This document shows positions 31,151 to 31,807 of a stretch of 64,000 nt of DNA, piece after piece. The position numbers and the translations under genes are program-made. The DNA lies in contig CM000434.1 of NCBI GenBank assembly GCA_000165345.1, positions 896,001-960,000 of the forward strand, given 5' to 3'. The notes below the pieces were generated by a model that searched no databases, was not told the DNA's origin, and saw only the letters and a program-made list of their open reading frames with translations. Every line of letters begins with the position of its first letter. The first letter of the stretch is position 1.

Positions 31151-31807
31151 ATTACTTTGTACTCTTACATTTATTTATATCTATCTATATTATATTATAG
31201 AAAGCATAATATTTTTTTAAATAATTCCATCTATTCTTTATTTCTTCTATTTTTACATACTTCTATTCAACCCACTTTATTACTTGAACAAATTATCTCT
31301 TGAATTTCAAATCTAATTTGAAAACAAAATCAGACAAAATCTTGTTAAGATAGTATTCCATCCAAACCAAAATACAACTTTTCCCAACGTATTCTATAAA
31401 TGCGTGTGCATTTAAAGAAATACACTAGAATGTGACATCCAACCTCTTAATCCCAACCAAACCACGAAATAGCCACATCAACATCAACACAGACGAAAGA
31501 AAATAGAATTCATGCATACAAATTACTCTCAAAAATACCTAAACTATCATTCTTAAACACTAAAAATTAAATAGTAAAAGCCCGTCCACATCAACCCAAT
31601 TACATACATGCATGCATGCATACAAAAAGAACTAGGCGGGAGCCCAAAAGGGTCCATTAGCGGAGAGAGATATTTTCGCCAGTAAGTTGTGATGCGAAGA
31701 AAAGTCATTAGTCTGTCAGATTACAATTCCAATTTTAATAGGAAATAATAAACAGTCGTTTGAATTAAGTCTCTAGTCAAAACCTCTAAAAATGAGATTT
31801 GAAAAGT

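What the first reader, a model, noticed from the sequence alone, without database searches (positions are those of the whole stretch)
31380..31700. Promoter-type motif cluster and C/A-rich tract inside a 3'-3' convergent spacer downstream of EF-1alpha
In this window, GCATGCA and GGCGGGA elements are found 5' of genes and are absent from the other convergent spacers. This 656-bp tail-to-tail spacer nevertheless carries CATGCATGCATGCATAC (31608-31624) and GGCGGGAGCCC (31635-31645). Before them is an unusually C/A-rich, relatively GC-rich tract (CCAACCAAACCACGAAATAGCCACATCAACATCAACACAGACG). This suggests an unannotated transcription unit (ncRNA or antisense RNA overlapping the EF-1alpha 3' end), or an origin or boundary element.
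Basis: seen in the sequence. Interest (0 to 1): 0.5.

Follow-up and report, generated by a model that had tools for sequence, protein, structure and literature searches.

The report
Conserved structured EF-1alpha 3' tail
The promoter-like motifs lie in a stretch downstream of the Cryptosporidium EF-1alpha gene that is conserved in seven species and folds best as the long 3' tail of the EF-1alpha message itself; a published antisense RNA model already covers it, so this is a modestly interesting, largely catalogued locus rather than a new gene.

Summary
The window is Cryptosporidium parvum chromosome 6. The (CATG)n/GCATGCA repeat, GGCGGGAGCCC and the C/A-rich tract are all there. Both motifs are strongly over-represented in the window. 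This tail-to-tail spacer is 657 nt, against 53-223 nt for the other five.

The "unannotated transcript" is already catalogued. Cp_lnc_253 (Li et al. 2021) is identical to window 31401-33331 on the + strand and antisense to all of EF-1alpha. Its ends mirror the likely EF-1alpha mRNA ends, and the pipeline had no filter for strand leakage, so it may be partly artefact. Its start also lies about 200 nt upstream of the motif cluster.

Seven species share two strongly conserved blocks, 31500-31620 and 31660-31790. A 23-bp long-range helix joins them and shows compensatory changes. The domain folds better than shuffled sequence only on the EF-1alpha-sense strand. A probably RNA-derived contig carries the EF-1alpha CDS plus 298 nt and ends 3 nt past that helix.

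My best reading (about 0.5) is a long, structured EF-1alpha 3'UTR. The C/A tract would then be its G/U-rich 3'-end region. GCATGC and GTCCACAT are invariant and may also act as an antisense promoter (about 0.25). No Rfam family, snRNA, snoRNA or coding ORF fits.

The parts
31808..33115 (-). EF-1alpha coding sequence (435 aa); defines the sense strand for the elements below
   Evidence: ORF; identical protein on C. parvum chr6 records CP029785.1 and BX526834.1 with EF-Tu Pfam domains
31713..31799 (-). Proximal part of conserved block B: two predicted hairpins (31781-31799 and 31713-31755) right after the EF-1alpha stop
   Evidence: 72-86% identity to chipmunk I/ubiquitum/L012/canis against ~35-45% elsewhere in the spacer; RNAalifold on the - strand. 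Structural support is weak when block B is folded alone
31668..31695 (-). 5' strand of the long-range closing helix (contains the invariant GAAAAUAUC and the GTAAGT-like string on the + strand)
   Evidence: Pairs with 31514-31540. 23 bp, 16 invariant, 3 with compensatory changes (GC<->AU in 3 species, UA<->CG, CG<->UA). Predicted independently on both strands
31638..31667 (-). Variable G+C-rich linker. Takes insertions of ~26-41 nt in canis and L012
   Evidence: Alignment A2. GGCGGG is exact only in parvum, tyzzeri and meleagridis (and the near-identical contig L015); degenerate or relocated in the others
31594..31637 (-). Helix H2 (31630-31637 with 31594-31601) enclosing the (CATG)n / GCAUGC hairpin (31602-31615).
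   Evidence: CATGCATGC is invariant in 7 species at 174-237 nt from the EF-1alpha stop; helices. It is also the AP2_1 DNA motif BGCATGCAH (PMC3734150)
31576..31593 (-). Single-stranded loop with invariant AUGUGGAC (GTCCACAT on the + strand, 31584-31591)
   Evidence: Invariant in 7 species. GTCCACAT matches 'motif5' instances found upstream of lncRNAs by Li et al.. 4 copies in the window against 0.87 expected
31543..31575 (-). Hairpin H3
   Evidence: 14 pairs, one compensatory and ten varying on one side only while staying paired through G-U
31514..31540 (-). 3' strand of the closing helix. Includes the invariant AGGUAUUUU and AGUAAU (a one-base variant of the A[AG]UAAA poly(A) signal) followed by UUGUAU
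   Evidence: AAAATACCTAAACT (31530-31543, + strand) is the longest invariant run of the spacer. Contig L015 ends at 31511
31436..31499 (-). Proposed 3'-end-formation region (a downstream element, or distal UTR if the mRNA ends near 31401)
   Evidence: Composition is conserved but sequence is not, in 6 of 7 species; top 1% skew
31382..31430 (-). Imperfect palindrome / hairpin centred on 31406, at the left end of the Cp_lnc_253 model
   Evidence: - strand dG -17.2, z -4.07 (0 of 200 shuffles); + strand z -2.54. 6 pairs with compensatory changes among 5 species. Weak in meleagridis and ubiquitum
31401..33331 (+). Published antisense lncRNA model Cp_lnc_253 (CPATCC_0015603)
   Evidence: Sequence in DataSheet_1 of PMC7840661 is identical and colinear with the window

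Best explanation
The flagged region is the distal half of an unusually long (about 300-400 nt), conserved and folded 3' untranslated region of the EF-1alpha mRNA on the - strand, together with its 3'-end-formation zone.

Reading from the stop codon at 31808, the layout is:
- two small hairpins;
- a 23-bp helix (31668-31695 with 31514-31540) that closes a ~180-nt domain;
- inside that domain, a variable GC-rich linker, helix H2 with the GCAUGC hairpin, a loop with invariant AUGUGGAC, and hairpin H3.

I read that as the cleavage/polyadenylation region, or as distal UTR if the message ends near 31401.

Shown: the conservation, the helices and their covariation, the strand asymmetry of folding, and the physical linkage of the CDS to 298 nt of 3' flank on a short contig.

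Inferred: that the fold acts in cis on EF-1alpha mRNA 3'-end processing, stability or translation, and the exact poly(A) site.

The GCATGC, GTCCACAT and GGCGGGA strings are then mainly parts of this RNA. A second, DNA-level role as an antisense promoter is not excluded.
For: 1. Conservation. Blocks 31500-31620 and 31660-31790 are 72-90% identical between parvum and chipmunk I, ubiquitum, L012 and canis. The rest of the spacer is about 25-55%. This extends far beyond the motif cores.

2. Structure. A long-range helix joins the two blocks, with GC<->AU (3 species), UA<->CG and CG<->UA exchanges. Overall 96% of cells are paired, and 6 pairs show double changes (1 of 500 shuffles reaches this).

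3. Strand. Against dinucleotide shuffles, the - strand gives z = -2.2, -3.7, -0.5, -0.8, -2.9, -2.3 in six species. The + strand gives -0.7, -2.5, +1.1, +0.3, -0.5, -0.3. The - strand structure is 96.5% canonical on -, with 77 G-U pairs, but only 78% canonical on +.

4. Linkage to the CDS.
- Contig L015 (1642 nt, from a near-identical relative) starts exactly at a conserved ...AAG| acceptor of a putative 5'UTR intron. It carries the whole CDS and ends at 31511, 3 nt past the closing helix.
- Contig L016, from another Cryptosporidium species, starts with an Illumina adapter and carries at least 402 nt after the stop.

5. Cp_lnc_253. The ends of the model (31401 and 33331) look like a mirror image of an EF-1alpha mRNA. 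GGGCGG and TATA-like boxes sit 50-115 nt beyond 33331.

6. Spacer length. The spacer is 3-12 times longer than the other convergent spacers, and is long in all nine species (412-915 nt).
Against: - I have no direct strand-specific RNA evidence. L015 and L016 come from samples whose library type I could not check, and neither ends in poly(A).
- There is no canonical A[AG]TAAA signal on the - strand within 530 nt of the stop. Only the variant AGUAAU is present.
- Thermodynamic support is modest in chipmunk I and ubiquitum (z -0.5 and -0.8). Most pairs of the closing helix never vary, and it can form on either strand.
- With only 7 related sequences, shuffle tests overstate covariation.
- The covariance model finds nothing in C. 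bovis, C. xiaoi or L016.
- GCATGC and GTCCACAT are known DNA motifs. Their invariance is explained equally well by transcription-factor binding.
- Cp_lnc_253 is reported as uncorrelated with its sense gene (r = -0.19). Simple leakage would predict a positive correlation.
Confidence: 0.5

Rival explanations
1. The cluster GTCCACAT - (GCATGC)n - GGCGGGA is a real promoter or transcription-factor platform lying in the EF-1alpha 3' region. It would drive a genuine + strand antisense lncRNA (the real part of Cp_lnc_253) with a start site near 31650-31700. This could coexist with the 3'UTR reading.
For: - All three strings are motif types enriched upstream of C. parvum genes or lncRNAs.
- GTCCACAT and CATGCATGC are invariant and sit at a near-constant distance from the EF-1alpha stop in 7 species.
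- A G+C-rich E2F-like box is present in some form in most species.
- Li et al. report that antisense RNAs usually start near the 3' end of the sense CDS.
- Cp_lnc_253 is listed as expressed in C. hominis and C. baileyi too, and is uncorrelated with its sense gene.
- The model is continuous across the putative EF-1alpha 5'UTR intron. Leaked spliced reads would cover that intron poorly.
Against: - The catalogued start (31401) is about 200 nt upstream of the cluster, and I saw no upstream-motif row for this lncRNA.
- GGCGGGA is exact only in three close species.
- Conservation spans about 250 nt and covaries as helices favouring the opposite strand.
- An ATAC-seq study reports no AP2 motifs in sporozoite open chromatin.
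- A full-length mirror of the most abundant mRNA is what strand leakage would produce. The same pattern is seen for the GAPDH antisense model Cp_lnc_280.
Confidence: 0.25
2. The ~180-nt closed domain (31514-31695, - strand) is a stand-alone intermediate-size ncRNA. It would be transcribed or processed downstream of EF-1alpha, for instance as one of the 43 'intergenic' is-ncRNAs of Li et al. 2022, rather than a cis element of the mRNA.
For: - It is a compact domain closed by a 23-bp helix, with - strand-specific stability and covariation.
- Li et al. 2022 report 79 novel is-ncRNAs of 45-531 nt, many of them Cryptosporidium-specific, including ones in UTRs.
- L015 ends 3 nt after the domain.
Against:
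- L015 joins the domain to the CDS on one contig.
- There are no Sm, C/D or H/ACA boxes and no Rfam hit.
Confidence: 0.12
3. The constrained RNA is on the + strand. It would be either a ~600-nt 3'UTR of the upstream 157-aa gene, ending at the conserved AATAAA at 31747-31752, or a + strand ncRNA such as telomerase RNA using ACCUAAAC (31537-31544) as template for TTTAGG repeats.
For: - The only A[AG]TAAA signals on the + strand after the 157-aa gene's stop are at 31573 and 31747. The second is conserved, 57-61 nt before the EF-1alpha stop, in six species.
- Cp_lnc_253 shows + strand coverage from 31401.
- AAAATACCTAAACT is the longest invariant run. It abuts the closing helix, and ACCTAAAC equals 1.33 telomere repeats.
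- An mRNA-3'UTR-derived telomerase RNA has a precedent in Ustilago (PMC9564094).
Against: - The + strand is no more stable than shuffles (mean z about -0.3), and only 35 pairs are predicted.
- I saw no pseudoknot-capable U-tract.
- Eight-base telomere permutations occur 11 times in the window, against ~21 expected.
- There is no template-like 8-mer in the C. bovis or C. xiaoi spacers.
- 31151-31500 is unconstrained.
Confidence: 0.05
4. A DNA-level element with no RNA product: a replication origin or a chromatin boundary between the convergent genes.
For: Only the unusual spacer length and the palindrome at 31382-31430.
Against: Compensatory changes and G-U-dependent strand asymmetry indicate constraint at the RNA level. 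No GC-skew switch is evident at 1-kb resolution. Nothing else was testable here.
Confidence: 0.02

Closest known systems
Cp_lnc_253 / CPATCC_0015603, antisense lncRNA of C. parvum (Li et al. 2021, PMC7840661)
   Same: Identical sequence to window 31401-33331 on the + strand, antisense to EF-1alpha. It covers the whole flagged region.
   Different: It is a short-read StringTie/TACO model with no strand-leakage filter. Its ends mirror the likely mRNA ends, and its start is upstream of the motif cluster, not downstream of it. The constraint found here lies on the opposite strand.
C. parvum AP2_1 (BGCATGCAH) and E2F-like (TTTGGCGGGAAV) upstream motif modules (Oberstaller et al. 2013, PMC3734150), plus lncRNA 'motif5' (..GTCCACAT..) of Li et al. 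2021
   Same: The same core strings, clustered within about 60 nt.
   Different: They sit between two gene tails, with no protein gene downstream. The T/A flanks of the E2F consensus are absent. GGCGGGA is not conserved beyond three close species and partly overlaps an RNA helix.
Eukaryotic poly(A)-site architecture: upstream UGUA, A[AG]UAAA hexamer, U/GU-rich downstream element (textbook knowledge; hexamer for Cryptosporidium as quoted in bioRxiv 2025.01.17.633476)
   Same: The order UUGUAU / AGUAAU, then U-run, then G/U-rich tract on the EF-1alpha sense strand. The G/U composition is conserved across species.
   Different: The hexamer is a one-base variant, the cleavage site has not been mapped, and the tract could instead lie inside the mRNA.
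Structured RNAs embedded in mRNA 3'UTRs, e.g. Ustilago telomerase RNA made from an mRNA precursor (PMC9564094); UTR-located snoRNAs in Plasmodium and C. parvum (PMC9465071)
   Same: A compact conserved fold downstream of a coding sequence.
   Different: No family-defining boxes or convincing template were found. There is no evidence of processing.

Membership tests
Catalogued C. parvum antisense lncRNA (Li et al. 2021) | Sequence identity with a catalogue entry on the stated strand | tested here: met
   Cp_lnc_253(+) equals window 31401-33331
Catalogued C. parvum antisense lncRNA (Li et al. 2021) | Transcript independent of strand leakage from the sense mRNA | not testable with these tools
   The pipeline has no leakage filter. 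The ends mirror the mRNA. r = -0.19 with the sense gene argues the other way
AP2/E2F promoter module | Motifs present and enriched | tested here: met
AP2/E2F promoter module | Motifs lie within ~100 nt upstream of a mapped transcript start | tested here: not met
   The only mapped model starts at 31401, 207-244 nt upstream of the motifs. The motif table shows no row for Cp_lnc_253 in the stretch seen. A start site downstream of the cluster is unmapped
AP2/E2F promoter module | Motifs conserved in orthologous spacers | tested here: inconclusive
   GCATGC and GTCCACA are present in 7 of 9 species. GGCGGG is at the homologous place in 3 only. None is present in bovis or xiaoi
Known RNA families (snRNA, snoRNA, SRP, RNase P/MRP, telomerase RNA models in Rfam 15) | Covariance-model score | tested here: not met
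   No hit at gathering score in 64 kb. Only chance-level hits at E<=10 in 31100-31850
U1 snRNA | Invariant 5' ACUUAC splice-site-pairing sequence | tested here: not met
   GTAAGT on the + strand varies (GTAATT, GTAAAT, GTAAAA) across species
C/D and H/ACA snoRNA | Conserved C (RUGAUGA) and D (CUGA) boxes, or H/ACA boxes, with a terminal stem | tested here: not met
   By my inspection of the alignment, candidate UGAUG and CUGA strings are not conserved, and I found no ACA box placed 3 nt from a hairpin end. No dedicated snoRNA predictor was run
Telomerase RNA | Template of at least one repeat plus realignment bases complementary to TTTAGG | tested here: inconclusive
   ACCUAAAC (8 nt) is invariant in 7 species, but such 8-mers occur 11 times in the window, about 21 expected
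Telomerase RNA | Structured core (pseudoknot) on the template strand; present in all species of the genus | tested here: not met
   + strand z about 0. No pseudoknot candidate seen. No template-like 8-mer in the bovis or xiaoi spacers
Conserved structured 3'UTR element of EF-1alpha mRNA | Physically part of the EF-1alpha transcript | tested here: inconclusive
   L015 joins the CDS to 298 nt of 3' flank and starts at a putative splice acceptor. L016 carries at least 402 nt. Library types are unknown and neither ends in poly(A)
Conserved structured 3'UTR element of EF-1alpha mRNA | Sense-strand-specific stability and covariation | tested here: met
   (moderate strength; 7 related sequences)
Conserved structured 3'UTR element of EF-1alpha mRNA | Canonical A[AG]UAAA signal before the 3' end | tested here: not met
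   None on the - strand within 530 nt of the stop; only AGUAAU at 31521-31526

The most novel reading that the evidence does not exclude
The invariant AAAAUACCUAAACU (31530-31543, + strand) is the template region of the still-undescribed Cryptosporidium telomerase RNA. The 23-bp closing helix immediately 5' of it would serve as the template boundary / core-enclosing helix. The RNA would lie in the 3' region of the upstream 157-aa gene, as with the Ustilago mRNA-derived telomerase RNA.
Probability: 0.02. Interest if true: 0.85.

Novelty: new member of a known kind. Interest (0 to 1): 0.3.

Why it matters
EF-1alpha is one of the most abundant messages of the parasite. Its flanks are natural candidates for expression cassettes in Cryptosporidium genetics.

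If the ~300-400 nt 3' region is a folded, clade-conserved cis element, constructs that truncate it may behave differently from the native gene. The element is also a tractable case for studying mRNA 3'-end formation in a genome where most convergent genes are only 50-220 nt apart.

The locus is also a concrete test of whether 'antisense lncRNAs' that mirror very abundant mRNAs (EF-1alpha, GAPDH) in the published catalogue are real. That affects the claim that about 10% of genes have antisense partners.

None of this changes a major concept. The transcript idea is already catalogued.

Tried and rejected
- **U1 snRNA on the - strand.** Suggested by ACTTAC. Rejected because the hexamer varies among species.
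- **U5 loop (CUUUUACU).** Rejected because it is not conserved in L012 or canis.
- **C/D or H/ACA snoRNA in either block.** The boxes are not conserved (by inspection).
- **Small coding gene.** The ORFs in the spacer are at most 51 aa. The spliced + strand ORF (ATG 31608; GTAAGT 31681 ... TAG|G 31741) ends after 26 aa. Indels of 6, 10 and 41 nt in the variable region break any reading frame.
- **The GTAA...TAGG 'intron'.** Cp_lnc_253 is unspliced across it.
- **Block A or block B folded alone.** This gave weak or no structure. The signal appears only when the two blocks are folded together.
- **Homologues in C. bovis and C. xiaoi.** Neither an nhmmer profile nor covariance model R1 found one; R1 also found none in L016 or L017, which nhmmer did not search.
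- **Metagenome scan** for ATACAARTTACN5AAAATACCTAAACT: 0 hits.
- **A/T and G/C skew downstream of stop codons** as a strand indicator: not discriminating in this window.
- **Supplementary tables of the small-RNA paper.** Not held.
- **Telomerase-RNA idea.** Tested and judged unlikely.

Full report
**Identity and layout.**
The EF-1alpha protein encoded at 31808-33115 (-) is found unchanged on Cryptosporidium parvum chromosome 6 records (BX526834.1, CP029785.1). The spacer is 100% identical in four C. parvum assemblies. The upstream + strand gene (30677-31150) encodes a 157-aa, Cryptosporidium-only hypothetical protein. The two genes are tail to tail, with 657 nt between their stop codons.

**The observation.**
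All three sequence features are present. The only error is that the CATG repeat starts at 31607, not 31608.
- GCATGCA has 31 strand-hits against 3.3 expected.
- GGCGGGA has 6 against 0.43.
- No shuffle reaches either count.
- Neither motif occurs in the other five convergent spacers of the window, which are only 53-223 nt long.
- The C/A tract (A+C 0.80, C 0.375) is in the top 1% of non-coding windows for that skew.

**Known RNA families.**
Rfam 15 gives no hit at gathering score anywhere in the 64 kb, and only chance-level matches at E<=10 in the spacer. There are no tRNAs. I recalled resemblances to U1 (ACUUAC), to the U5 loop and to snoRNA boxes. None survives comparison across species. ORFs in the spacer are at most 51 aa, and indels break their reading frames.

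**What is already published.**
Li et al. 2021 (PMC7840661) include Cp_lnc_253(+) in their lncRNA FASTA. Its sequence is identical and colinear with window 31401-33331. It is catalogued as CPATCC_0015603, antisense to CPATCC_0015600. It is reported as not correlated with its sense gene (r = -0.19) and is among 167 lncRNAs also seen in C. hominis and C. baileyi.

There are three caveats.
- The model starts about 200 nt upstream of the motif cluster. I saw no upstream-motif row for it in the paper's table.
- It covers the whole gene and stops 216 nt upstream of the ATG. GGGCGG and TATA-like boxes lie 50-115 nt further on, which is where the EF-1alpha start site is expected.
- The pipeline (HISAT2, StringTie, TACO, with thresholds of FPKM > 3 and coverage > 10) had no filter for strand leakage. 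The GAPDH antisense model Cp_lnc_280 has the same full-mirror shape.

The model may therefore be partly or wholly a mirror of the very abundant sense mRNA.

**Comparative anatomy.**
I fetched the syntenic locus from C. tyzzeri, C. meleagridis, chipmunk genotype I, C. ubiquitum, C. canis, C. bovis, C. xiaoi and an unnamed Logan assembly. Gene order is conserved, and the spacer is always long (412-915 nt).

Seven species align. Two blocks stand out at 72-90% identity to the four more distant species: 31500-31620 and 31660-31790. The rest is 25-55%. Details:
- CATGCATGC and GTCCACAT are invariant and keep a near-constant distance from the EF-1alpha stop.
- GTCCACAT matches the 'motif5' instances that Li et al. 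found upstream of lncRNAs. It occurs 4 times in the window against 0.87 expected.
- GGCGGGA is exact only in parvum, tyzzeri and meleagridis.
- The segment between the blocks is G+C-rich, variable, and takes 26-41-nt insertions.
- The C/A tract does not align, but the same place is C/A-rich in six of seven species.
- C. bovis and C. xiaoi lack all of these elements.

**Structure and strand.**
Folding either block alone gives little. Folding them together gives a 23-bp helix pairing 31514-31540 with 31668-31695. It is predicted independently on both strands. Its compensatory exchanges are GC<->AU in three species, UA<->CG and CG<->UA.

On the - strand the consensus fold of 31807->31500 has 70 pairs at -33 kcal/mol. 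Inside the closing helix are:
- helix H2 (31630-31637 with 31594-31601), which uses the GGC of GGCGGGA;
- the self-complementary GCAUGC hairpin;
- a loop carrying AUGUGGAC;
- hairpin H3.

On alignment A13, 96% of cells pair. Six pairs change on both sides (1 of 500 shuffles), and the covariation score exceeds all 500 shuffles. With only seven related sequences this is supportive, not conclusive.

The strands differ.
- Against dinucleotide shuffles, the 220-280-nt domain has z = -2.2, -3.7, -0.5, -0.8, -2.9, -2.3 on the - strand.
- On the + strand it has z = -0.7, -2.5, +1.1, +0.3, -0.5, -0.3.
- The - strand structure relies on 77 G-U pairs that become A-C mismatches on the + strand, so canonical pairing falls from 96.5% to 78%.

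The constrained RNA is therefore most likely EF-1alpha-sense.

**Link to the EF-1alpha message.**
A 1642-nt ENA contig from a near-identical relative (L015) begins 36 nt before the ATG. That position coincides with a conserved ...AAG| acceptor, and it is preceded in the genome by a conserved A|GTGAGG donor 114 nt upstream (window 33265->33152). A contig breaking exactly there is what a transcriptome assembly does at a splice junction. L015 then carries the whole CDS and 298 nt beyond the stop. It ends at 31511, three bases past the closing helix.

A Logan contig from another Cryptosporidium species (EF-1alpha 97% identical) starts with an Illumina adapter and carries at least 402 nt after the stop. 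Its sequence is not alignable, and the covariance model does not match it.

These points suggest, but do not prove, a 3'UTR of at least ~300 nt. Downstream of the helix, on the sense strand, come AGUAAU and UUGUAU, a U-run, and then the G/U-rich tract. That order is typical of a poly(A) site. However, the canonical A[AG]UAAA quoted for Cryptosporidium is absent on this strand for 530 nt.

Further on, a palindromic hairpin at 31382-31430 (- strand z -4.07, 6 compensatory pairs) sits at the left end of the Cp_lnc_253 model.

**Weighing the readings.**
The long structured EF-1alpha 3'UTR explains the most:
- the spacer length;
- conservation far beyond the motif cores;
- the helices and their strand bias;
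- the contig evidence;
- the mirror-like ends of the lncRNA model.

I put it at about 0.5.

A genuine antisense promoter is the main rival, at about 0.25, and the two are compatible. Three promoter-type motifs cluster within 60 nt, and two of them are invariant. The published antisense model is uncorrelated with the sense gene and runs across the putative 5'UTR intron.

A stand-alone - strand ncRNA is possible, at about 0.12. I could not check it against the small-RNA catalogue, because its tables are not held.

+ strand readings are unlikely. One is a long 3'UTR of the 157-aa gene using the conserved AATAAA at 31747. The other is telomerase RNA using ACCUAAAC for the TTTAGG telomere. The + strand shows no excess structure. 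Telomere-like 8-mers are common in the window (11 seen, about 21 expected). C. bovis and C. xiaoi have none in this spacer.

An origin or boundary element could not be tested. It does not explain RNA-type covariation.

**Verdict.**
What I add is a clade-restricted, folded ~300-nt element on the EF-1alpha-sense strand. It is probably the message's own 3'UTR, and it contains the motifs. This is a new example of a familiar kind of element. Existing long-read data on CryptoDB should settle the question quickly.

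Noticed in passing
window 33152-33265 (- strand): Putative 114-nt intron in the EF-1alpha 5'UTR. The donor A|GTGAGGGGATTTTG is invariant in 5 species, there is a pyrimidine run, and the ...AAG|TCG acceptor is conserved. Contig L015 begins exactly at the acceptor.
   Followed up: partly
window 31382-31430: Imperfect palindrome forming a ~22-bp hairpin (- strand dG -17.2, z -4.07; + strand z -2.54), with compensatory changes between parvum and chipmunk genotype I. It sits at the left end of the Cp_lnc_253 model and between the two converging genes.
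   Followed up: partly
Supplement of PMC7840661 (Cp_lnc_280, Cp_lnc_291, Cp_lnc_296): The catalogue holds antisense 'lncRNAs' for GAPDH, beta-tubulin and a ribosomal protein. The GAPDH model mirrors the whole mRNA; I did not inspect the other two. The methods describe no filter for strand leakage, so antisense models of very abundant mRNAs may be artefacts.
   Followed up: partly
window 20473-20524: GTCCACAT (- strand, 20473-20480) lies 37 nt from a palindromic GCATGCA site (20517-20524) in a 1.6-kb intergenic region. This is the same pairing of motifs as at 31584/31609.
   Followed up: no
window 45851-45862 and 41427-41438: Double GCATGCATGCA sites. One is inside the CDS 45068-48682 (-). The other is 52 nt after the stop of the phosphodiesterase gene (37755-41375), in a tandem spacer.
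   Followed up: no
L010 4511-5425 and L011 4511-5422 (C. bovis, C. xiaoi): The homologous spacer is even longer (~915 nt) and has a ~300-nt A/C-rich stretch on the same strand. It has no GCATGC, GGCGGG or GTCCACA and no match to the conserved domain.
   Followed up: partly
L016 1-24: Logan contig SRR29752148_76720 starts with the Illumina adapter tail TTCAGACGTGTGCTCTTCCGATCT (adapter identity from my own knowledge). It encodes an EF-1alpha 97% identical to C. parvum's, from an unidentified Cryptosporidium species with a G+C-richer 3' region.
   Followed up: no
window 60629-60860: CAA/CAG-rich repeat (CAACAACAACAGCAACAG...) in a region with no complete ORF of at least 120 aa listed. It may belong to a gene that the ORF list misses.
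   Followed up: no
window 31681-31741 (+ strand): GTAAGT ... TTTTAATAG|G looks like a 61-nt intron, and GTAA and TAGG are invariant in 7 species. The published + strand model is unspliced here, and the GTAA lies in the closing helix.
   Followed up: partly
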